In this document: one piece after another, positions 1,525 through 61,455 of the stretch
Layout of the letters: the number at the start of each line of letters is the position of its first letter
How positions within the stretch are numbered: position 1 is the first letter of the stretch
IMG/VR virus record: IMGVR_UViG_3300044856_000241
Coordinates: 1-64,000 of that record
Length of the DNA stretch: 64,000 bases
Source: a virus
Lineage: Duplodnaviria; Caudoviricetes
Reading direction: 5' to 3' (one strand)
Translations under genes and position numbers: made by a program
Notes under the pieces: generated by a model
The model's database searches: none
What the model saw: the letters and a program-made list of their open reading frames with translations, nothing else
What the model was told of the DNA's origin: nothing

Positions 1525-3152
1525 AAACCTTACTAGCCCCAAATATACAGTAATGTATGTTTTAGATGACAACTATATCGGTTAAAAACCTGCGAAGGTC
1601 AAGACCGAGCAAAGACTTATAACATAAAATGACATAAATATAAATGAAAGAAGAATATAATATTATTGGGAAAATGTAAACAAGGTGATGTTTATGGTCG
1701 CCTAACGCTTATGAAAAAAGGTGAGAAAAATAAGTATGGCGTAGATCAATGGTGGTGCCAATGTAATTGTGGGAATCCAGCCTGGTGTTTAGTTGCTGAA
1801 AGTCAATTAATTCCAGGTAAAACAAAATCATGTGGATGTTTAGCCACCGAAAATAAAAGAAAAATTGGTAAAAACAATATTAAAATCACTTTTGAAGATT
1901 GGTGTAATTCTAATAATAAAAGTGATTTCCTTGATTTATGGGATGATGAATTAAATGATGAATCTCCTGATGCCATTGGTTATAGCAGCTCAAAAGACTG
2001 CTATTTTTTATGTCAAAATGATTCAAATCATCATCCAACATTTAAATTAAGAAATATTACTAAAGATGGACAATATCATAATATTGATTGTTATATCTGC
2101 AATTCGTTTGGATATAATCTAATATTAAAATATGGACAAGATGCTTTAAATAAATATTGGGATTATGATAAAAATAATGGAATAGATCCATTATTAATAG
2201 CTAAGAATACTAATAAAAAATTGTATATCTATTGCCAAAATAATCAGAAACACGGTTCATATCCTGTAACTGGTACACACTTTTGGCAAAGAGGACAAAG
2301 ATGTCCGTATTGTGCAAAAAGAAAAGTTTTCAAAGAAGAATCATTGGGGTATTTACATCCTGAAGTATTAGATTTATGGTCTGATAAAAACCAAAAATCT
2401 CCTTATGAATTTTCAGAATCGTCGGGGAGACGGGTGTTTTGGAAATGCAACGAAGGAGTGCATGATGATTACAGTCGTACAATTAAAGATTCAAAGAAAA
2501 CTTATTTTGTTTGTCCAGAATGTAGAAAACTTGATACAGAATCAAATTTAGAAAAATCTGTAAAATCTTTTATTCAAAATAATTATTCATATACCATTAA
2601 TACAGAATATGACTGTAGTATAGTTCCTATTAATCCAAAAACAAATCACAAATTACCATATGATAACGAAGTTAAAGAGTTGAAATTAATTATAGAAGTT
2701 CACGGCGAACAACACTATCAGGTTTGCCAATTTACAACTCTTGCTGCACAAAAATATAATATCTCACCAGAAGAACAATTAGAGTATCAACAATGGAAAG
2801 ATAATTTCAAAAAAGAATATGCTTTAAAAAATGGATATTCTTATTTAGAAATTCCTTATTGGACTATAAAGAATAATACATATAAAGAAATTATAGATAA
2901 TAAAATTAAAGAATTATGTTATAAGAATGCGTAACGACTGTTGTGATTTATATGTGATAAAAAGCGTATATATCCAAGTTGTCTATCCTACTCTTCTGTT
3001 TTTATGTCAAACAGAGAAAAGAGGATATAATATACAGTCTGCTCTCACACTATAATCTAAAAATAAAATGTGAGAGGTAGCAAGAAATTACTGCCCGCCA
3101 TAATTATATTAATTATGGTCAGTACCATTTTTGATGGGAAAGTAACAGAAGG
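1525..3152 (+). mobile_element. Group I intron (intron 1 of the TMP gene) with homing endonuclease in P6
   Basis: P1: exon GGGGT pairs with GCCCC (U.G at 1524). P10: TTACTA pairs with 3' exon TAGTGA. P3: GACAACT/AGTTGTC. A 12-bp stem CTTATAACATAA (1616-1627)/TTATGTTATAAG (2914-2925) encloses the ORF. P7: GACTG/CAGTC. Terminal G at 3152. Splicing gives in-frame AQEG-L-VSIMKAW. Confidence 0.92.
1666..2934 (+). CDS. Intron-encoded homing endonuclease: zinc-ribbon repeats plus C-terminal Vsr/EDxHD-like nuclease domain
   Basis: N-terminal GRLT..WWCQCNCG..GKTKSCGC, repeated CPYC/CPEC zinc ribbons, and C-terminal LPYD...IIEVHGEQHY...KDNFKKEYA...LEIPYW. Confidence 0.8.
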   Translation: MGKCKQGDVYGRLTLMKKGEKNKYGVDQWWCQCNCGNPAWCLVAESQLIPGKTKSCGCLATENKRKIGKNNIKITFEDWCNSNNKSDFLDLWDDELNDESPDAIGYSSSKDCYFLCQNDSNHHPTFKLRNITKDGQYHNIDCYICNSFGYNLILKYGQDALNKYWDYDKNNGIDPLLIAKNTNKKLYIYCQNNQKHGSYPVTGTHFWQRGQRCPYCAKRKVFKEESLGYLHPEVLDLWSDKNQKSPYEFSESSGRRVFWKCNEGVHDDYSRTIKDSKKTYFVCPECRKLDTESNLEKSVKSFIQNNYSYTINTEYDCSIVPINPKTNHKLPYDNEVKELKLIIEVHGEQHYQVCQFTTLAAQKYNISPEEQLEYQQWKDNFKKEYALKNGYSYLEIPYWTIKNNTYKEIIDNKIKELCYKNA

Positions 3153-3946
3153 TAGTGAGTATCATGAAGGCATGGGACATTGGTGTTGACGATGTTAAGT
3201 CCGAAATTATGGACAAAATTAATATTCTAGGCAACACAATGGCTGAATCAAATCAGGATATTGTTGAAGGTATGGAACGTTCTGCCGCCGCATTAGCAGC
3301 TGTTGGAACTTCAACAGAAGATGCGTTTGCCATGTTTAGTGGTATCAATGAGGTTCTGCAAAATGCAGAAAAAAGTGGTACCGCCCTTCGATCAATTTCT
3401 TTGCGTCTGAGATCTTTCGATGAATCTACAGAAGAATATTCGGATGATCTCAAGAATATTACAGGCGAACTCGTAGACTTGACAAAAACAGCACAACACA
3501 CTCAAGGTGTATCTGTTTTTAAAGATGGATCTACGACAGAGTTCAAAAGCCTAGTTGAGTATTTTGGAGAAATAAATGAAATCTGGGACGAAATGACTCA
3601 GAAACAACAAAATGATTTCCTTATTAAAGCATTTGGTAGAACTCAGGCACAAGCTGGATCTGCATTAATTCAGAACTATGCTGGAGTCACAAAAGCTCTT
3701 GATGAAATGTCAAATAGTGCAGGAAGTGCTGATAAGGAAATGGAAACTATCAAATCATCTTTGGAATATAAGCTCAATGCGTTGAAAGAAACGTGGGTTG
3801 GAACCGCACAAAAGATGGCTGACAGGAGCGTTTTGGGTGGTATAATTGATGGTTTAACAACAATTTCTGAACTTATTGGTAAAGTAGGTGTTGTGCCTAC
3901 GGCAATTACCGGTGCTGGAATATTTGGATTTGTTAAAAACTTTCGT
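3153..3946 (+). CDS. Tape measure protein, exon 2
   Basis: Continues the TMP core (DKINILGN...SGTALRSISLRLR...YKLNALKETW) and ends GAGIFGFVKNFR at the predicted second 5' splice site. Confidence 0.88.
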
Positions 3947-6310: not shown

Positions 6311-6420
6311 AAATTATGTACTGTGACCGTATATATCAGTAACCATAAAAAGAAGGTACGGGTTCAAATTATTTCCGCTACCCAGTATGCGGCTAATAAA
6401 AGGCTGGGGTTCAAATTATT
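6311..6420 (+). ncRNA. cptI: Type III antitoxin RNA (CptI-like): two pseudoknot repeats delimited by AAATTAT
   Basis: Repeat 1: TACTG/CAGTA plus CCGTAT/GTACGG. Repeat 2: CCGC/GCGG plus CCCAG/CTGGG. Both are H-type pseudoknots ending GGTTC-AAATTATT. TATAAT upstream; terminator then toxin downstream. Confidence 0.8.
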
Positions 6421-6449
6421 ACCCTACTGGTTATCAGTAGGGTACTTTT
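6420..6449 (+). terminator. Intrinsic terminator between antitoxin repeats and toxin gene
   Basis: TACCCTACTG/CAGTAGGGTA then CTTTT; standard type III TA layout. Confidence 0.8.
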
Positions 6450-6464
6450 GTACATAGGAGAAAA

Positions 6465-6971
6465 ATGGAACAAGGAAAGCTGTATTTTGTTAAAGATGAA
6501 TTTTATGATAGATTCAAAGACTGTGGCTTGTTAGAAAATAAAGAAATAATTAATGGTGAGCAACATGGTAGACCTTGCTGTTATCTATTCAAATTTACTA
6601 AAGAAGATACTGATATATATTGGATGATACCAATTTCGTCAAAAATCGACAAATACAAATCTGAATATCAGAAATCAATGAATAAATACAATATGTGTGA
6701 TAATATTAGTTTTGGATATGTACTTGGAAACGAAAGAGCATTCCTTCCGCAAAATCTATTTCCGATAACAGAAAATTACATTGATAATATTTATATTGAC
6801 AAAAATACGTCCTTACCTATTGCAATACCTGCTGATCTAATGTCTGAATTAAATAAGAAAGCAAGGAAAAAGATTAGATATAATCAGCAAGGTAAAATTT
6901 TTGGTATGTCAAATATTACAAAAATATATAATGAATTACAAAATGATATTAATAAAGGAGATACCAATTAA
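6465..6971 (+). CDS. cptN: Type III toxin endoribonuclease, CptN/ToxN family
   Basis: LYFVKDEFYDRF...NKE..HGRPC...YWMIPISSKIDKYK...AFLPQNLFPITENYI motifs, plus upstream repeat/terminator architecture. Confidence 0.85.
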   Translation: MEQGKLYFVKDEFYDRFKDCGLLENKEIINGEQHGRPCCYLFKFTKEDTDIYWMIPISSKIDKYKSEYQKSMNKYNMCDNISFGYVLGNERAFLPQNLFPITENYIDNIYIDKNTSLPIAIPADLMSELNKKARKKIRYNQQGKIFGMSNITKIYNELQNDINKGDTN

Positions 6972-6990
6972 GGTGTCTCCTTTATATTTT
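6951..6990 (+). terminator. Intrinsic terminator after cptN
   Basis: ATAAAGGAGATACC/GGTGTCTCCTTTAT followed by a T tract. Confidence 0.7.
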
Positions 6991-7060
6991 TGAAATGAAA
7001 TCATTTGTCTGATATTTAACAATGCAATATTTTTCGTTTTGTTCGTATTACTATACTCTC

Positions 7061-7171
7061 CTACCATTTATATCCACAATTTTTACATTTCATAGTCTTA
7101 CCAACGTCACTACTTGCCAAACCGAATAAGCCTGTAGATAGCCAGCGTTTTGTACCGGGTTGAGTAGAGAA
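7061..7171 (-). pseudogene. C-terminal remnant of a zinc-ribbon protein gene
   Basis: Translates to PGTKRWLSTGLFGLASSDVGKTMKCKNCGYKW*, homologous to the C-terminus of 8900..9283. In-frame stop upstream and no N-terminal start. Confidence 0.75.
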
Positions 7172-7229
7172 TTATATAGTATACCCATATATATCCCATA
7201 CAAATTTGAATAAAAGGAGAACTTTAAAC

Positions 7230-7415
7230 ATGAATAATACTGAAATAAAAATCCCATACACAGAAGATAATAAATTTATGTGGCTATTAAACAGATATAA
7301 TACAGAAAAATGCGATAACTTTATTTTTTTTGAAGCAATTCATATTTTAGCCACCACATCTGATAATATGGTAAAACTTAAAACATTAGAATTGCTTCAA
7401 AATCTTCAGTACTAA
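7230..7415 (+). CDS. Hypothetical protein (intron cargo)
   Basis: AAAGGAG SD before ATG 7230. Confidence 0.55.
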   Translation: MNNTEIKIPYTEDNKFMWLLNRYNTEKCDNFIFFEAIHILATTSDNMVKLKTLELLQNLQY

Positions 7416-7629
7416 GATAAAGCAATAGTACCATCTTTCATATTCCTAGAAAGTAGGTGATATTTTGAAAAAACTAAAACATTGGTTAGTATGTAAAATT
7501 ATAAAGCTTGGGGTTGACTACTCAGTTTTAATTTGCACAGCTAGAATTAAACTCTGCAAATTAAAACTGGCAATCAAGAAGAAACTTTTAGGTTAGTCAG
7601 ACCTTGCCATTTATATCCGCAATTTTTAA

Positions 7630-58648: not shown

Positions 58649-58717
58649 AAGACACACTTCCGGTATCCCATCCGGTTAATTTATTATGTCGAAATAATAA
58701 TTTGCTGTATGTGTCTT
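58649..58717 (-). ncRNA. ACAGCAA hairpin unit 1
   Basis: AAGACACA-T-ACAGCAA...TGTGTCTT. Confidence 0.75.
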
Positions 58718-58725
58718 TCTTATCC

Positions 58726-58779
58726 TAGATACATTTTTCTTTCGATGCTTGGAAATTAATAATTGCTGTGTTGTATCTA
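58726..58779 (-). ncRNA. ACAGCAA hairpin unit 2
   Basis: TAGATACA-AC-ACAGCAA...TGTATCTA. Confidence 0.75.
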
Positions 58780-58793
58780 TATCTATATATTCT

Positions 58794-60314
58794 CTACGCC
58801 ACCAGATCTTTTACCGCATTCTCAACTGGTGCGTATCTTTCAGAATTTAATTGCTCCAGTAAACACTCAAATGGATCTGTACTGTTACTCAATACCATTT
58901 TCACAATTGCAGGACTGAAACCACTTACAAGTGCTACACCAGCCTCATTCTCTTTTACCGGAATTGTGCCAGTACGACTCATGATATTCCAGAATACTAA
59001 TCTTGGAAGTTTATATCCATGAGCTTCATATCTATCAGCCAGTTCTTCGAATAATCTCTTATCAGTACGTCCAGAAGTCATACGATCAAATTCTAAATCT
59101 GAAAGTACCAGTACATTCTGTGGCATATCATCCTGAGTCATCTCATTCCTGATCGCTGTCTGGAGAATCAGATCAAATGTTGCTTCAATATTTGTATTTG
59201 TCATCTCACAATGATTCAGCGCAATCTCAATTTTCTCACGCAATGAATCGGCATTGCTAAAATCAACAATCTGCGGGTGACTACTAAACGTAATATATGT
59301 ATCTTTGAACTGTCCAGAACTTCTCTCTGCAAAGTAAATGGCTAATGCATTTGCCACACTAAGAGCTGTGACATTCGTACCACCAATTCTTGAAGTCATA
59401 CTTCCTGATCCATCAGCTACACAAATTGTATTTCCTGTTCCGCTAACGTAATCAGGCAATGCTTTCCAAAGCTGTTCAAGTGTCGGATCATCAACAGGTG
59501 ACAAGTTCCATCTACTTGAGCCATACTTATGTACAATATCATGCGGGAATAAAACACCGGCATTGATTTTTGTTTCGCCTTTTTCTAACTTATTCAAGTA
59601 TTCTCTACGTCTTTCCTCATCATTTCGTAAGAAAGCATTGTTGTAAATTAGATTTGCTCTTGACGGAACAGCTGCATAATCAATTTTATCCCACTGTTTT
59701 GCAGACATTTTAACTTCAACCACATTCAGGTACGCACGGAGCTCGGATAACATTTTTCTATATTGTCTGTCTGTGAAAATGATGTTATCCATGATGATAT
59801 GTGCCAATCGTTTTGTCTCTTTTGAAGAGGTGTTAGCACTTGGCATCCATTTAGCAAGAAGCGAAATCGGTTTACTCTGCTTCATATTTACACCATCTTC
59901 TAAGAGCTGATGTACTACTACTTCACACACATCATCTTTTAAATCAGTGTCCAATAAACACCATAAATCATCCCAACGTCCATATTCAGGAACCAGTTTA
60001 ATTACTTCCTTGGCAATATCCTGATGATTCTCTGCAAGATATTTTATACAAGTTCTAAACAGTCTTCTCTCGCCAATTCCCTCTCTACAATCACGGCAAT
60101 AAAATAACCATTTCATTGCCAAAATTTTGTCCTCATAGAACGCTTTTACGAACTTTTCAACGATTTTTTCTTCGCTCATGTTCCTCATAGATGATACTGA
60201 AAAGTTTAAATCAAGAAGTTCTTTACCTGATGTTCTATAACCAAGAGCACCATTCTCAGTAACTGAATAATTGAAGTCATCATTCAGTGTTTCTTTTAAA
60301 TTTTTCATAAACAT
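58794..60314 (-). CDS. DUF2828-like protein: helical TROVE/Ro60-like N-terminus plus C-terminal vWA domain
   Basis: TENGA, RDCREGIGERRLF, YGRWDDL, LAKWMPS; MIDAS motif VADGSGSM...TNIEATF...LSDLEFD; LVFWN, LVSGFS. Confidence 0.82.
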   Translation of the reverse strand: MFMKNLKETLNDDFNYSVTENGALGYRTSGKELLDLNFSVSSMRNMSEEKIVEKFVKAFYEDKILAMKWLFYCRDCREGIGERRLFRTCIKYLAENHQDIAKEVIKLVPEYGRWDDLWCLLDTDLKDDVCEVVVHQLLEDGVNMKQSKPISLLAKWMPSANTSSKETKRLAHIIMDNIIFTDRQYRKMLSELRAYLNVVEVKMSAKQWDKIDYAAVPSRANLIYNNAFLRNDEERRREYLNKLEKGETKINAGVLFPHDIVHKYGSSRWNLSPVDDPTLEQLWKALPDYVSGTGNTICVADGSGSMTSRIGGTNVTALSVANALAIYFAERSSGQFKDTYITFSSHPQIVDFSNADSLREKIEIALNHCEMTNTNIEATFDLILQTAIRNEMTQDDMPQNVLVLSDLEFDRMTSGRTDKRLFEELADRYEAHGYKLPRLVFWNIMSRTGTIPVKENEAGVALVSGFSPAIVKMVLSNSTDPFECLLEQLNSERYAPVENAVKDLVA

Positions 60315-60361: not shown

Positions 60362-60418
60362 TAGACGGCATGGAAAATAGATTAACAGTCTATACCAAAA
60401 AATTGCTGTAGCCGTCTA
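60362..60418 (-). ncRNA. ACAGCAA hairpin unit 3 with Asn (GTT) anticodon stem-loop
   Basis: TAGACGGC-T-ACAGCAA...ATAGA CTGTTAA TCTAT...GCCGTCTA. Confidence 0.8.
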
Positions 60419-60431
60419 AAGAATCATTTAC

Positions 60432-60488
60432 AAGATAGCTATATGTTAATATTCTCCGCTTGAATTAAATATTTGCTGTAACTATCTT
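60432..60488 (-). ncRNA. ACAGCAA hairpin unit 4
   Basis: AAGATAGT-T-ACAGCAA...GCTATCTT. Confidence 0.75.
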
Positions 60489-60491
60489 CAA

Positions 60492-60607
60492 CGACAGGAA
60501 CAGGACTCGAACCTGTATCAATGCCTGGACGTGGAATAAATATCGCTGTTAATGTCTATTACAAGACATATTTTTTTCACCGTTTTAACCAATTAAACTA
60601 TCCCGTC
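60492..60607 (-). ncRNA. tRNA-like RNA A; anticodon arm replaced by a motif hairpin (ACAGCGA variant)
   Basis: Acceptor GACGGGA/TCCTGTC, D arm GTTT..AAAC, T arm ACAGG TTCGAGT CCTGT; insert ATGTCT-loop-AGACAT-TA-ACAGCGA. Confidence 0.8.
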
Positions 60608-60684
60608 ATGTGAGTATTCTCATACGGCAATACAAGAATACTCAGCTTGCAACTTATTAACTTACTTCCCACAAAGAAAGGAGC

Positions 60685-60743
60685 TAGACGGTTTTGGTTA
60701 GTAAATTAAAAGTCTTCTCCAATAAGTTTGCTGTATCCGCCTA
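60685..60743 (-). ncRNA. ACAGCAA hairpin unit 5 with Lys (TTT)-type anticodon loop
   Basis: TAGGCGG-AT-ACAGCAA...AGA CTTTTAA TTT...CCGTCTA. Confidence 0.75.
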
Positions 60744-60747
60744 TATA

Positions 60748-60814
60748 CAAGACACTTAGCCACTTGGCATTTGATTTGCAATCAAATTGTTCAATGTTGC
60801 TGTTTTGTGTCTTA
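60748..60814 (-). ncRNA. ACAGCAA hairpin unit 6 with Cys (GCA) anticodon stem-loop
   Basis: TAAGACAC-AAA-ACAGCAA...TTTGA TTGCAAA TCAAA...GTGTCTTG. Confidence 0.8.
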
Positions 60815-60815
60815 A

Positions 60816-60934
60816 TGGAGATGGAGAGATTCGAACTCCCGACAAATGGTTACCCTTAATTAATATTTGCTGTTGATGTCTTATACAAAACACACATAAT
60901 ATTTCCATCGCTCTACCAACTGAGCTACATCTCC
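60816..60934 (-). ncRNA. tRNA-like RNA B; anticodon loop replaced by an ACAGCAA hairpin
   Basis: Acceptor GGAGATG/CATCTCC, D arm GCTC AGTTGGTA GAGC, stem ATGG/CCAT, T arm GGGAG TTCGAAT CTCTC; insert TGTTTT-GTAT-AAGACA-TCA-ACAGCAA. Confidence 0.85.
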
Positions 60935-61012
60935 GTATGAATTCCTTCCTATTATAATAAGGAAGAAACTCATGTTATTTGTAACAATACGTTTTCCACA
61001 GAAAGGAGATCC

Positions 61013-61072
61013 TAGACGGTATCTGGGTTGCAAATTAAAAGTTGTTCCAAAGAAAATTGCTGTTACCGCCTA
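61013..61072 (-). ncRNA. ACAGCAA hairpin unit 7 with Lys (TTT)-type anticodon loop (paralog of unit 5)
   Basis: TAGGCGGTA-ACAGCAA...CAA CTTTTAA TTTG...TACCGTCTA. Confidence 0.75.
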
Positions 61073-61085
61073 TTTTGTTGTGGAA

Positions 61086-61256
61086 TCACCGGATCTGGGT
61101 TCGAACCAGAATCTGCATCGTCCATTAAATTAAAATTTGCTGTAAGCGGATGACTATGTATCAAAAAGAAAAGAGAGGATTTTATGAAAGTATATGTTAT
61201 TTTTTCTATCCGCTTTTTAATTGTGATGCTGTTTTACCAATTGAAACTATCCAGTG
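61086..61256 (-). ncRNA. tRNA-like RNA C; long ACAGCAA hairpin in place of the anticodon loop
   Basis: Acceptor CACTGGA/TCCGGTG, D arm GTTT..AAAC, anticodon stem GCATC/GATGC, T arm TCTGG TTCGAAC CCAGA; insert AAGCGGAT...ATCCGCTT-ACAGCAA. Confidence 0.85.
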
Positions 61257-61260
61257 TAAA

Positions 61261-61383
61261 TTGTAGGGGCTGGATTCGAACCAGCGAAACCATAGGTGTC
61301 AGATTTAGAGTCTGATTTGCTGTTAGTGATTATACCTAATCACATTTTTCTTCTGATGCGTTTAGCCACTTCGCTACCCTACA
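61261..61383 (-). tRNA. tRNA-Tyr-like body with CUA (amber) anticodon and a 41-nt ACAGCAA insertion (tRNA-like RNA D)
   Basis: TGTAGGG/CCCTACA, Tyr-type D arm GCGAAGTGGCTAAACGC, TCAGA CTCTAAA TCTGA, variable arm ACC TAT GGT, T arm GCTGG TTCGAAT CCAGC; insert bounded by an ATCAGA direct repeat. Confidence 0.8.
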
Positions 61384-61391
61384 ATGTAATC

Positions 61392-61447
61392 GAGACACTT
61401 TATTATCATCCGTATTATAATATTTTAACATTTGCTGTTAGTGTCTC
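61392..61447 (-). ncRNA. ACAGCAA hairpin unit 8
   Basis: GAGACACT-A-ACAGCAA...AGTGTCTC. Confidence 0.78.
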
Positions 61448-61455
61448 ATCTTTAC

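What the first reader, a model, noticed from the sequence alone, without database searches (positions are those of the whole stretch)
60362..61072. Stand-alone hairpins display canonical anticodon loops (Asn, Cys, Lys x2): possible anticodon-nuclease decoys
Seen: unit 3 has ATAGA-CTGTTAA-TCTAT (60377-60393) and unit 6 has TTTGA-TTGCAAA-TCAAA (60770-60786), both perfect 5-bp/7-nt anticodon arms with Y32-U33 and A37. Units 5 and 7 have CTTTTAA loops (60706-60712, 61035-61041) on weaker stems. None has acceptor, D or T arms. Known: tRNA-Lys(UUU) is the target of PrrC and PARIS AriB, and tRNA-Asn is a colicin E5-type target. Inference: decoy substrates or baits for host anticodon nucleases or modifying enzymes, or spare anticodon modules complementary to the anticodon-less tRNA bodies interleaved with them.
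Basis: partly seen in the sequence, partly recalled or inferred. Interest (0 to 1): 0.85.

Follow-up and report, generated by a model that had tools for sequence, protein, structure and literature searches.

The report
Anticodon-arm mimics on phage Y-like RNAs
The four hairpins are the tips of small phage RNAs that share one conserved "handle", lie next to a gene for a Ro60-like RNA-binding protein, and copy the anticodon arm of tRNAs (mostly Lys and Asn) far more often than chance, so the phage probably uses them to engage host factors that read tRNA anticodons.

Summary
On the minus strand there are two perfect 5-bp/7-nt anticodon arms (Asn CUGUUAA, Cys UUGCAAA) and two weaker CUUUUAA (Lys) hairpins, none with D, T or acceptor arms.

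They are not free hairpins. Each is the tip of a ~60-nt RNA closed by a covarying 7-9 bp clamp helix followed by unpaired ACAGCAA. Fourteen such units flank a DUF2828 gene whose predicted fold matches only Ro60/TROVE proteins.

- In 238 non-redundant units from related phages, 57 carry a canonical anticodon arm, against 7.1±2.6 in shuffles.
- In 80 bacterial loci chosen by protein alone, the figure is 31 of 63, against 1.6±1.2.
- CUUUUAA and CUGUUAA dominate.

Best reading: these are Y-RNA-like partner RNAs of a phage Ro60-like protein that display tRNA parts. Acting as bait or decoy for anticodon nucleases is the leading functional guess, but it is untested. "Spare anticodon modules" for the anticodon-less tRNA bodies is unlikely.

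The scan has met this handle/DUF2828 system in at least 27 other genomes. The handle equals the Dictyostelium Class I RNA motif. No Rfam family matches.

The parts
60362..60419 (-). Handle RNA unit displaying an Asn-type anticodon arm (AUAGA-CUGUUAA-UCUAU at 60377-60393). The clamp helix is UAGACGGC/GCCGUCUA, ACAGCAA lies at 60403-60409, and an inner UGG/CCA helix is present. It is the last unit before the Ro60-like gene.
   Evidence: (MFE -13.6 kcal/mol, z -2.66, predicted exactly as drawn)
60748..60814 (-). Handle RNA unit displaying a Cys-type anticodon arm (UUUGA-UUGCAAA-UCAAA at 60770-60786). The clamp is UAAGACAC/GUGUCUUG and ACAGCAA lies at 60797-60803. The 98%-identical phage L001 has CUGAAAA (Phe) on the same stem.
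60684..60745 (-). Handle RNA unit with a Lys-type loop CUUUUAA (60706-60712) on a 4/5-paired stem GAAGA/UUUAC. The clamp is UAGGCGG/CCGUCUA and ACAGCAA lies at 60728-60734. It is followed by CUCCUUUCU.
   Evidence: Units of similar sequence in L002 and L003 have perfect Lys arms.
61011..61072 (-). Handle RNA unit with a Lys-type loop CUUUUAA (61035-61041) on a degenerate stem (2/5 pairs). The clamp is UAGGCGGU/ACCGUCUA and ACAGCAA lies at 61057-61063. It is a paralogue of the 60684-60745 unit.
60429..60491 (-). Handle RNA unit without an anticodon-arm payload (clamp AAGAUAG/CUAUCUU).
61390..61596 (-). Three further handle RNA units with A/U-rich payloads and no anticodon arm (61390-61449, 61455-61522, 61527-61596).
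60491..60608 (-). tRNA body carrying the handle in circularly permuted form (AUGUCU-UGUAAU-AGACAU, then ACAGCGA) where the anticodon loop should be.
   Evidence: (tRNA 21.6 bits with a 54-nt insert)
60816..60934 (-). tRNA body (Rfam tRNA 53.8 bits) with a 55-nt insert holding the permuted handle in place of the anticodon loop.
61086..61256 (-). tRNA body with a ~100-nt insert holding the permuted handle inside an intact 5-bp anticodon stem (GCAUC/GAUGC).
61260..61384 (-). tRNA with a long variable arm and an intact CUA (amber-reading) anticodon arm. The 41-nt handle is inserted just 5' of that arm, flanked by a duplicated UCAGA. The matching tRNA in L002 (same layout) reads GUA (Tyr).
58794..60314 (-). 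Ro60/TROVE-like protein gene (DUF2828 + DUF7788/vWA with a MIDAS motif; phrog_850 'RNA-binding protein'). It is the presumed protein partner of the handle RNAs.
58652..58780 (-). Two more handle RNA units immediately downstream of the Ro60-like gene (ACAGCAA at 58702-58708 and 58763-58769).

Best explanation
Each hairpin is the apical 'display' module of a ~60-nt Y-RNA-like small RNA. The RNA's two ends pair in a 7-9 bp clamp helix (consensus AAGACnnn/nnnGUCUUG, with the sequence free to covary). The clamp is followed on the 5' side by unpaired ACAGCAA(U/A)UUU. This handle is most likely the binding site of the Ro60-like DUF2828 protein encoded directly downstream, as Y RNA stems are for Ro60 (inferred).

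About 9-13 nt after the motif the RNA presents a 5-bp/7-nt arm with the C/U32-U33-NNN-A37-A38 signature of real tRNA anticodon loops (shown). Sister units on the same handle present T arms, whole tRNA bodies, or YrlA-like permuted tRNAs instead.

The particle therefore offers isolated tRNA parts to host proteins that read tRNAs. For the anticodon-arm units, the most likely clients are enzymes that recognise the anticodon stem-loop of tRNA-Lys and tRNA-Asn. The leading candidate role is bait, decoy or competitive inhibitor of anticodon nucleases of host defence systems, with the Ro60-like ring stabilising or tethering the RNA.

Shown here: the architecture, the mimicry, its enrichment, and the association with the gene. 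Inferred: protein binding, expression, and the client. My odds for the specific decoy role are about 0.3.
For: 1. Handle.
- The window has 12 minus-strand ACAGCAA in 1.2 kb plus 2 downstream of the gene. Window-wide the count is 36, against 13±3.5 expected.
- In the whole 203.6-kb phage, true units occur only at 58.65-61.6 kb.
- On 22 aligned units the clamp helix is 89% paired, with changes on both sides in 7 of 9 pairs. The whole-structure covariation score is 0.58, against 0.20 in shuffles and at most 0.16 in slid controls.

2. Association with the gene.
- The motif clusters just upstream of the homologous gene in nearly all of 67 viral loci at 46-98% protein identity.
- Of 80 bacterial or MAG loci picked by protein alone, 65 have units on the gene strand: 154 units there against 2 on the opposite strand.
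- Four of 5 phage records picked by RNA pattern alone also encode the protein. The fifth is a 33%-complete fragment.
- The handle also flanks the homologue in Listeria phage cka15, Bacillus phage KoopaTroopa, Felixounavirus heid and Mycobacterium phage LeBron.

3. Protein.
- The AlphaFold model's 13 best PDB matches are all Ro60/TROVE proteins over their full length, E 2e-7 to 3e-4.
- The MIDAS motif DGSGS is invariant.
- Pfam reports DUF2828, DUF7788 and, weakly, vWA_Ro60.

4. Anticodon mimicry.
- 37 of 171 unique payloads have a perfect canonical arm, against 4.6±2.1 in shuffles.
- 57 of 238 clusters at 80% identity do, against 7.1±2.6, maximum 16.
- 31 of 63 in the independent genome set do, against 1.6±1.2.
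- Top loops are CUUUUAA 20, CUGUUAA 7, CUUGAAA 5, CUGCUAA 4. C32 is 39% against 14% C in payloads, and U33 is 62% against 35%.
- Lys loops sit on at least 7 different stems.

5. Precedent.
- Thermus phage phiLo Ro60 binds two Y-like RNAs encoded upstream of its gene (PMC12135203).
- YrlA Y RNAs mimic tRNA (PMC4201824).
- PrrC takes its cues from, and cleaves, isolated tRNA-Lys anticodon stem-loops (PMC1950546).
- AriB recognises the tRNA-Lys anticodon stem-loop (PMC11464382).
- The Listeria cka15 homologue was found in purified virions, with very abundant early RNAs from unannotated regions upstream of it (PMC12282133).
Against: - No expression, RNA-end or binding data exist for this phage.
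- The handle differs from the known Ro60-binding motifs (GGUCCGA, GNCGAAN0-1G, CGAA), so protein binding rests on gene-RNA linkage alone.
- Only about a quarter to a half of stand-alone units carry an anticodon arm. Six of the window's ten stand-alone units carry none, and its two Lys arms are imperfect.
- Anticodon identities are diverse in the bacterial set. That fits poorly with a single nuclease target.
- The mimic stems are A/U-rich and are not copies of one host tRNA stem.
- Many anticodon nucleases depend on base modifications that a mimic may or may not acquire.
- No anticodon nuclease of the likely hosts (Clostridia) was identified here.
- In some records the units lie far from the gene.
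Confidence: 0.55

Rival explanations
1. Tether or adaptor model. The anticodon arm is a docking site that recruits a housekeeping tRNA-binding protein to the Ro60-like ring for RNA turnover or quality control that favours the phage. Candidates are the class IIb synthetases LysRS and AsnRS, which read the anticodon; t6A, mnm5s2U or queuosine modification enzymes; and an exonuclease, as in the Rsr-Y RNA-PNPase machine. In this model it is not a decoy for a defence nuclease.
For: - It is the established role of Y RNA modules: the Deinococcus Y RNA tethers Rsr to PNPase, and phiLo Ro60/Yrl binds host PNPase (PMC4201824, PMC12135203).
- Most of the enriched loops end in U36-A37 (UUU, GUU, GAU, GCU, GGU). 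That is the class of tRNAs carrying t6A37, which is my own background knowledge.
- The diversity of anticodons in the bacterial set suits many clients.
Against: No partner is identified. Nothing computed here distinguishes this model from the decoy model.
Confidence: 0.2
2. Evolutionary debris. The handle is a mobile or recombinogenic element that lands in tRNA genes, and the anticodon arms are leftovers of disrupted tRNAs with no function of their own.
For: - The same handle interrupts four tRNA genes in the window at or beside the anticodon arm.
- One insertion is flanked by a 5-6 nt direct repeat, like a target-site duplication.
- Two of the four arms in the window are decayed.
Against: - Arms recur in many lineages at a fixed distance (mostly 8-14 nt) from the motif.
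- Their stems covary and the loop signature is kept.
- No remnants of D, T or acceptor arms remain.
- Strand bias is 154 to 2, and the units stay linked to one gene.
- The direct repeat has co-evolved with the 3' stem strand between L002 (AGAGA) and the window (UCAGA), which argues for RNA-level selection.
Confidence: 0.08
3. Codon or specifier readers. The arms use their anticodons to base-pair with AAA/AAY codons in empty A sites of ribosomes stalled after tRNA depletion, or with specifier loops of T-box leaders in Firmicute hosts. This would bring the Ro60-like protein there or block tRNA sensing.
For: - The arms keep the full U-turn signature needed for codon reading.
- The likely hosts of this clade are Clostridia, judged from the MAG titles.
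- That isolated anticodon stem-loops bind programmed ribosomes is my background knowledge.
Against: - The system also occurs in phages of E. coli, Salmonella, Campylobacter and Vibrio, which lack T-boxes.
- No complementary codon context or ribosome link was found here.
- Some variant loops lack U33 (CCGUUAA, CAUUUAA, CAGUUAA).
Confidence: 0.05
4. Spare anticodon modules. The arms are joined at the RNA level to the anticodon-less tRNA bodies interleaved with them, as in archaeal split or tri-split tRNAs.
For: - Bodies without anticodon loops and arms without bodies share one handle, whose AAGAC/GUCUU cores could cross-pair.
- The Listeria phage relative encodes a 'tRNA splicing ligase' (RtcB) 1.3 kb from the gene.
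Against: - At least one body keeps its own anticodon stem closed by the handle, and each arm has a complete stem of its own. Joining them would not give a cloverleaf.
- The window has 3 bodies against 4 arms, and other loci have arms without bodies.
- This complete phage genome has no RtcB or Rnl2-type ligase. The Rnl1 search was uninformative.
- No bulge-helix-bulge-like junction is evident.
Confidence: 0.03

Closest known systems
Ro60/Rsr with Y RNAs, especially bacterial and mycobacteriophage YrlA (Rfam RF02553; Chen et al. 2014, PMC4201824) and Thermus phage phiLo Ro60 with Yrl1/Yrl2 (PMC12135203)
   Same: - Small RNAs are encoded within a few kb of, and on the same strand as, a ring-shaped TROVE+vWA protein gene.
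- The 5' and 3' ends pair in a stem next to a short conserved single-stranded motif.
- The variable inner module mimics tRNA.
- Sister units in related loci are true YrlA-like permuted tRNAs on the same handle (L067, heid, LeBron). The LeBron unit scores 39.8 bits on the YrlA model.
   Different: - The protein belongs to the divergent DUF2828 branch. It has no sequence match to any solved Ro60 and only a fold match.
- The motif is ACAGCAA, not GNCGAAN0-1G or CGAA.
- The units discussed here display only an anticodon arm, which no described Y RNA does. D. radiodurans Yrn1 has at most a 6-nt-loop look-alike.
- Arrays reach 14 units.
- In some units the handle is grafted into normally ordered tRNAs.
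- The YrlA model does not truly match the window (20.8 bits against a threshold of 69, across two adjacent tRNAs).
Dictyostelium Class I RNAs (Aspegren 2004; pattern GTTGRCCTTACAGCAA...GTCAACTG in PMC5054030; Kjellin et al. 2021, PMC7919456; Rfam RF01414 as named in an earlier scan note)
   Same: - They are about 60 nt long.
- A short covarying stem joins the 5' and 3' ends.
- A conserved unpaired motif ending in ACAGCAA lies directly 3' of the 5' stem strand.
- The rest of the RNA is variable.
- The 5' start is AAG-like and the 3' end CUGU-like.
   Different: - They are eukaryotic, Pol-transcribed genes with their own DUSE promoter element.
- The known binding protein is the RRM protein Rnp1A.
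- No tRNA-part cargo is described.
- The authors found none outside Dictyostelia.
- No Rfam family, including that one, matches the window unit even at E up to 10 in a 71-nt search.
Phage counter-measures to anticodon nucleases: T5 tRNA-Lys variant against PARIS (PMC11464382); T4 Pnk/Rnl1 repair against PrrC (background knowledge)
   Same: They concern the same tRNA region, the anticodon stem-loop of tRNA-Lys, and phage-encoded tRNA-related RNAs clustered with tRNA genes.
   Different: Those are functional replacement tRNAs or repair enzymes. Here the arm is detached from any tRNA body and cannot decode. No ligase is encoded (the Rnl1 search was uninformative). No decoy RNA against an anticodon nuclease has been described, as far as my searches went.

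Membership tests
tRNA anticodon stem-loop (structural mimic) | 5-bp stem closing a 7-nt loop with pyrimidine 32, U33 and purine 37 | tested here: met
   Met in full for 60377-60393 and 60770-60786. The unit at 60684-60745 has 4/5 pairs. The unit at 61011-61072 has 2/5 pairs, so it is not met there. Homologous units are enriched 8- to 19-fold over shuffles.
tRNA (Rfam RF00005) | Cloverleaf with acceptor, D and T arms | tested here: not met
   ARAGORN finds 0 genes without the intron option. cmscan finds tRNA only in the interleaved bodies, not in the four units.
Y RNA / YrlA (RF02553) | Encoded within about 4 kb of a Ro60-type gene and on the same strand | tested here: met
   The units lie 47 nt to 1.3 kb upstream and 15-140 nt downstream of the DUF2828 gene, all on the minus strand. 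In 80 other loci the strand bias is 154 to 2.
Y RNA / YrlA (RF02553) | Terminal stem formed by the 5' and 3' ends | tested here: met
   The clamp helix is 89% paired, with compensatory changes in 7 of 9 pairs. It is predicted in all ten folded units.
Y RNA / YrlA (RF02553) | Ro60-binding sequence GGUCCGA / GNCGAAN0-1G (CGAA) near the 5' end | tested here: not met
   The conserved motif is ACAGCAA. The published motifs are quoted from PMC4201824 and PMC12135203.
Y RNA / YrlA (RF02553) | tRNA-like domain with T and D arms (YrlA subclass); match to the covariance model | tested here: not met
   The four units have no T or D arm. The best YrlA score in the window is 20.8 bits against a threshold of 69, and it spans two neighbouring tRNAs. 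Sister units elsewhere do have the domain.
Y RNA / YrlA (RF02553) | Physical binding to the Ro60-type protein | not testable with these tools
   The available complex predictor takes proteins and small ligands only. Binding is inferred from linkage.
Ro60/TROVE protein (for the partner gene) | HEAT-repeat ring plus C-terminal vWA domain with a MIDAS motif | tested here: met
   The AF2 model has pLDDT 75.6. Its top 13 PDB matches are all Ro60/TROVE, full length, TM 0.34-0.50. DGSGS...T...D is invariant in 20 homologues. TM-scores are modest, and ring closure was not inspected.
Dictyostelium Class I RNA | Short terminal stem plus an 11-nt motif (..UUACAGCAA) next to the 5' stem strand; about 60 nt | tested here: met
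   The architecture and the ACAGCAA core agree with the published pattern.
Dictyostelium Class I RNA | Match to the family's covariance model; DUSE promoter; dictyostelid origin | tested here: not met
   No such Rfam hit at E up to 10. The sequence comes from a phage of bacteria.
Anticodon-nuclease decoy (functional class, none described) | Bound or cleaved by an anticodon nuclease, and protects the phage | not testable with these tools
   Only feasibility is known from the literature (PMC1950546, PMC11464382).

The most novel reading that the evidence does not exclude
The Ro60-like protein and its handle RNAs form a modular 'tRNA-part display' particle. An array of interchangeable baits (anticodon arms of chosen identity, T arms, anticodon-less tRNA bodies) sits on one protein-binding handle. 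Phages would tune the set to the tRNA-targeting defences of their hosts. The particle may be delivered early, given that the Listeria phage homologue was detected in purified virions. The same handle in Dictyostelium Class I RNAs would then mark an ancient particle shared from phages to eukaryotes.
Probability: 0.2. Interest if true: 0.9.

Novelty: new variant of a known kind. Interest (0 to 1): 0.72.

Why it matters
Homologues of the DUF2828 protein occur in 705 cultured phage records. These include Felix O1-like coliphages, P100/A511-like Listeria phages and others used in biocontrol. Homologues also occur in hundreds of gut Clostridia genome assemblies. Neither the protein nor its RNAs has a known role.

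Showing that its partner RNAs display detached anticodon arms would do three things:
- It would give the Ro60/Y RNA field a new cargo type with an obvious biochemical handle.
- It would offer a testable new route of phage defence against tRNA-cleaving immunity, which so far is known to be countered only by replacement tRNAs and repair enzymes.
- It would suggest a protein partner and a function for the long-unexplained Class I RNAs of social amoebae.

It also explains why tRNA finders miss four 'tRNA' genes in this phage.

Tried and rejected
- DNA search of the array against cultured phages found no match.
- Sequence search of the protein against the PDB and NCBIfam found nothing. Only the fold search worked.
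- Rfam found no family for the units at the gathering threshold or at E up to 10, the Class I RNA family included.
- The phage genome has no RtcB or Rnl2-type ligase. The Rnl1 search had no positive control, so it is uninformative.
- Promoter-like sites are not enriched in the array: 14 found against 13.7 expected. The transcription units remain unknown.
- Amber recoding of the phage: no clear sign. TAG ends 20 of 146 long ORFs, and only 3 same-frame ORF pairs are split by TAG.
- Faster evolution of the loop than of the rest: weak. There were 6/56 variable loop columns against 19/481 elsewhere in 8 clusters, p = 0.036, and the Lys loops were stable. I do not lean on it.
- The pattern scan of IMG/VR is contaminated by chance matches: only 48 of 120 had the extra pairs. 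I used it only after filtering on pairing.
- ARAGORN's intron-mode anticodons for the tRNA bodies (att, gca, gga) are forced guesses. One of them reads the ACAGCAA motif itself. I rejected them.
- Trans-assembly of arms and bodies was rejected on anatomy.
- The YrlA hit in the window was rejected as an artefact of a T arm followed by the next tRNA's D arm.
Full report
**What is there.** Genes around the finding run on the minus strand, and the features must be read on that strand.
- The Asn unit has AUAGA-CUGUUAA-UCUAU at 60377-60393.
- The Cys unit has UUUGA-UUGCAAA-UCAAA at 60770-60786.
- Both are perfect 5-bp/7-nt arms with pyrimidine 32, U33, A37 and A38.
- The two CUUUUAA loops (60706-60712, 61035-61041) sit on weaker stems. 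The first has 4 of 5 pairs, the second only 2 of 5.
- RNAfold returns the drawn arm as the minimum-energy fold only for the Asn unit.
- None of the four has D, T or acceptor arms. ARAGORN calls nothing in the window, and Rfam sees tRNA only in the interleaved bodies.

Each hairpin is enclosed in a larger unit. Its layout is a 7-9 nt strand (consensus AAGACnnn), then ACAGCAA(A/U)UUU after 0-3 nt, then the payload, then the complementary strand ending GUCUUG.
- Twelve such units lie between 60362 and 61596, and two more lie just downstream of the next gene.
- Ten units are self-contained. In four, the same helix-plus-motif is grafted in circularly permuted form into tRNA bodies. Three of those bodies lack an anticodon loop. 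The fourth, a tRNA with a long variable arm, keeps an intact CUA arm.
- In the whole 203.6-kb phage genome, true units occur nowhere else.

**The gene beside them.** The ORF at 58794-60314 (minus strand) starts 47 nt after the Asn unit.
- It matches Pfam DUF2828 and DUF7788, matches vWA_Ro60 weakly, and matches phrog_850, annotated 'RNA-binding protein'.
- It has no sequence match in the PDB.
- An AlphaFold model built on 20 homologues has mean pLDDT 75.6. Its 13 best PDB matches are exclusively Ro60/TROVE proteins over their full length: Thermus phage phiLo Ro60, Xenopus and human Ro60, and Deinococcus Rsr (E 2e-7 to 3e-4).
- The MIDAS signature DGSGS is invariant.

**Linkage of RNA and gene.**
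- I fetched 67 viral loci by this protein, at 46-98% identity. Nearly all have ACAGCAA clustered just upstream of the gene, and some have it just downstream too.
- I fetched 80 loci from bacterial genomes and MAGs by the protein alone, mostly Lachnospiraceae and other Clostridia. Of these, 65 carry units on the gene's strand: 154 units there against 2 on the other strand.
- In the reverse direction, 4 of 5 phage records found by an RNA pattern alone also encode the protein. The fifth is a 33%-complete fragment.
- In three of those records the unit and the gene lie apart.
- Homologues occur in 705 cultured phage records.
- I looked at four of them. Listeria phage cka15 has three units in the 400 nt before CKA15_055. 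Bacillus phage KoopaTroopa has units between its tRNA array and the gene. Felixounavirus heid and Mycobacterium phage LeBron carry ACAGCAA or GCAGCAA on both simple units and YrlA-like permuted tRNAs.
- The LeBron unit scores 39.8 bits on Rfam's YrlA model.
- The handle is therefore the common denominator of a family that includes, at one edge, the known phage YrlA RNAs.

- Among 171 unique stand-alone payloads from the first 67 loci, 37 contain a perfect 5-bp/7-nt hairpin with loop YU-NNN-R-N. Shuffles give 4.6±2.1, maximum 12 in 500.
- I added loci found by a handle pattern, which involves no selection on payload, and clustered at 80% identity. T-loop look-alikes were counted apart. Then 57 of 238 clusters have such an arm, against 7.1±2.6.
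- In the independent bacterial set the figure is 31 of 63, against 1.6±1.2.
- The arm usually starts 8-14 nt after the motif.
- Among all perfect 5/7 hairpins at that position, the commonest loops are CUUUUAA (20), CUGUUAA (7), CUUGAAA (5), CUGCUAA (4) and CUGAAAA (3). C32 is at 39% where C makes up 14% of payload bases. U33 is at 62% against 35%.
- On an alignment of 22 arm-bearing units, all five arm pairs and 7 of 9 clamp pairs show changes on both sides. The covariation score is 0.58, against 0.20 in shuffles and at most 0.16 when partners are slid.
- Most of those rows were chosen for having an arm, so the percentage paired in that helix is partly circular. The variety of stems under one loop is not.
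- A further 32 clusters display T-arm look-alikes. The general theme is display of tRNA parts.

**How it most likely works.** The Ro60 paradigm supplies three elements: a terminal stem with a short conserved motif binds the ring, the variable module engages something else, and the genes sit together (PMC4201824, PMC12135203).
- All three anatomical elements are present here. The motif is different, and the module is a detached anticodon arm.
- I therefore read the four hairpins as the client-binding ends of Y-RNA-like partner RNAs of the DUF2828 protein.
- The identity of the client is inference.
- Anticodon nucleases are the best candidates for three reasons. The two dominant identities, Lys(UUU) and Asn(GUU), are classical targets. 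PrrC takes its cues from the anticodon stem-loop and cleaves isolated stem-loop analogues (PMC1950546). PARIS AriB recognises the tRNA-Lys anticodon stem-loop (PMC11464382).
- The report that the Listeria phage homologue was detected in purified virions, with very abundant early transcripts from unannotated regions upstream (PMC12282133), would fit an early counter-defence role. That homologue is only 37% identical. One of those abundant regions is a ROOL RNA.

**Points against a simple decoy.**
- Anticodons are diverse in the bacterial set.
- Many units have no arm.
- The stems are A/U-rich and non-native.
- Nucleases may need base modifications that the mimic lacks.
- A housekeeping client, such as a class IIb synthetase, a modification enzyme or an exonuclease, is a serious rival.

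**Rejected readings.**
- 'Spare anticodon modules': at least one body keeps its own anticodon stem, and the arms have complete stems. Numbers do not match. This complete genome encodes no RtcB or Rnl2 ligase. The Rnl1 search was uninformative.
- 'Debris of a mobile element': the fixed spacing, the covariation, the retained loop signature, the strand bias, and co-evolution of the duplicated stem strand between loci all argue against it.

**Comparison with the known.**
- Closest are Ro60/Rsr-Y RNA particles, above all YrlA, and phiLo Ro60 with Yrl1/2.
- This locus shares their logic but fails two membership features: the binding motif and the covariance model.
I checked that lead. The published search pattern GTTGRCCTTACAGCAA...GTCAACTG (PMC5054030) and the description in PMC7919456 match the phage handle in architecture and in the ACAGCAA core. 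That description covers a ~60-nt length, a 6-bp covarying terminal stem, and a conserved unpaired motif next to the 5' strand.
- No Rfam model hits the window unit, and those RNAs were reported only from dictyostelids.
- My literature searches found no description of DUF2828 partner RNAs or of anticodon-arm decoys.

**Limits.** There is no binding test. Promoter-like sites are not enriched. The fold match has modest TM-scores. The scan has already met this handle/DUF2828 system in at least 27 other genomes. This report adds the quantitative test of anticodon mimicry.

Noticed in passing
window 61260-61384 (-): A tRNA with a long variable arm reads amber (loop CUCUAAA, anticodon CUA). It carries the 41-nt handle just 5' of the anticodon arm, flanked by a duplicated UCAGA that can pair with the same 3' strand. 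The matching tRNA in L002 (about 3090-3215) has the same layout, with AGAGA duplicated and a GUA (Tyr) anticodon. Both copies have therefore co-evolved with the stem, which suggests a switch or an excision signal.
   Followed up: partly
G000 (whole phage) 182415-185912 (+), 132459-133250 (-), 79270-80622 (-); outside the window: Three pairs of long ORFs lie in one frame, separated by a single TAG. They are possible read-through targets of the CUA tRNA. Overall there is no sign of amber recoding: TAG ends 20 of 146 long ORFs.
   Followed up: partly
window 60664-60683 and 60991-61010 (-): Both Lys-type units are followed at once by (GAU)CUCCUUUCU(U)UGUGG. From memory this resembles the anti-Shine-Dalgarno 3' end of 16S rRNA. 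It can also form a small hairpin. CUCCUUUC also follows handle units in L074, L117/L145/L146/L150 and L185.
   Followed up: partly
L261 (Listeria phage cka15, OR088597.1) 1961-2512, 3150-3420, 6343-7554: The region holding the tiny annotated ORFs CKA15_059-061 is a ROOL RNA (90 bits, just under the threshold). Three ACAGCAA units with a sigma-A-like promoter precede CKA15_055. An RtcB 'tRNA splicing ligase' lies 1.3 kb downstream. The published abundant early RNAs probably include these (PMC12282133).
   Followed up: partly
L067 3355-3465 and 3510-3635; L262 4855-4990; L263 3520-3650: These units have the order clamp, ACAGCAA, T arm, acceptor helix closed by a loop, D arm, clamp. They are YrlA-type permuted tRNAs on the same handle, found in a gut phage, a Felix O1-like coliphage and mycobacteriophage LeBron.
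   Followed up: partly
L154/L167 vs L132; L152; L169; L166: Some arm variants keep the Lys or Asn anticodon but lose the U33 or C32 signature (CCGUUAA, CAUUUAA, CAGUUAA, AUUUUAA). L132 and L154 differ only at positions 33-34 of the loop (UUUU to CGUU) in otherwise almost identical 69-nt units.
   Followed up: no
window 61150-61212 (+): The long insert of the tRNA body at 61086-61256 is antisense to a good ribosome-binding site plus ATG (GAGAGGATTTTATG) on the plus strand. This is probably fortuitous.
   Followed up: no
G000 66639-67136, 158083-158159, 168447-169249, 180383-180455: The phage has eight ordinary tRNA genes elsewhere: Ile-UAU twice, Gln, Asn, Tyr, Ser-UGA, Glu and Thr. It has no tRNA-Lys, although Lys is the identity most often displayed on handle RNAs.
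   Followed up: no
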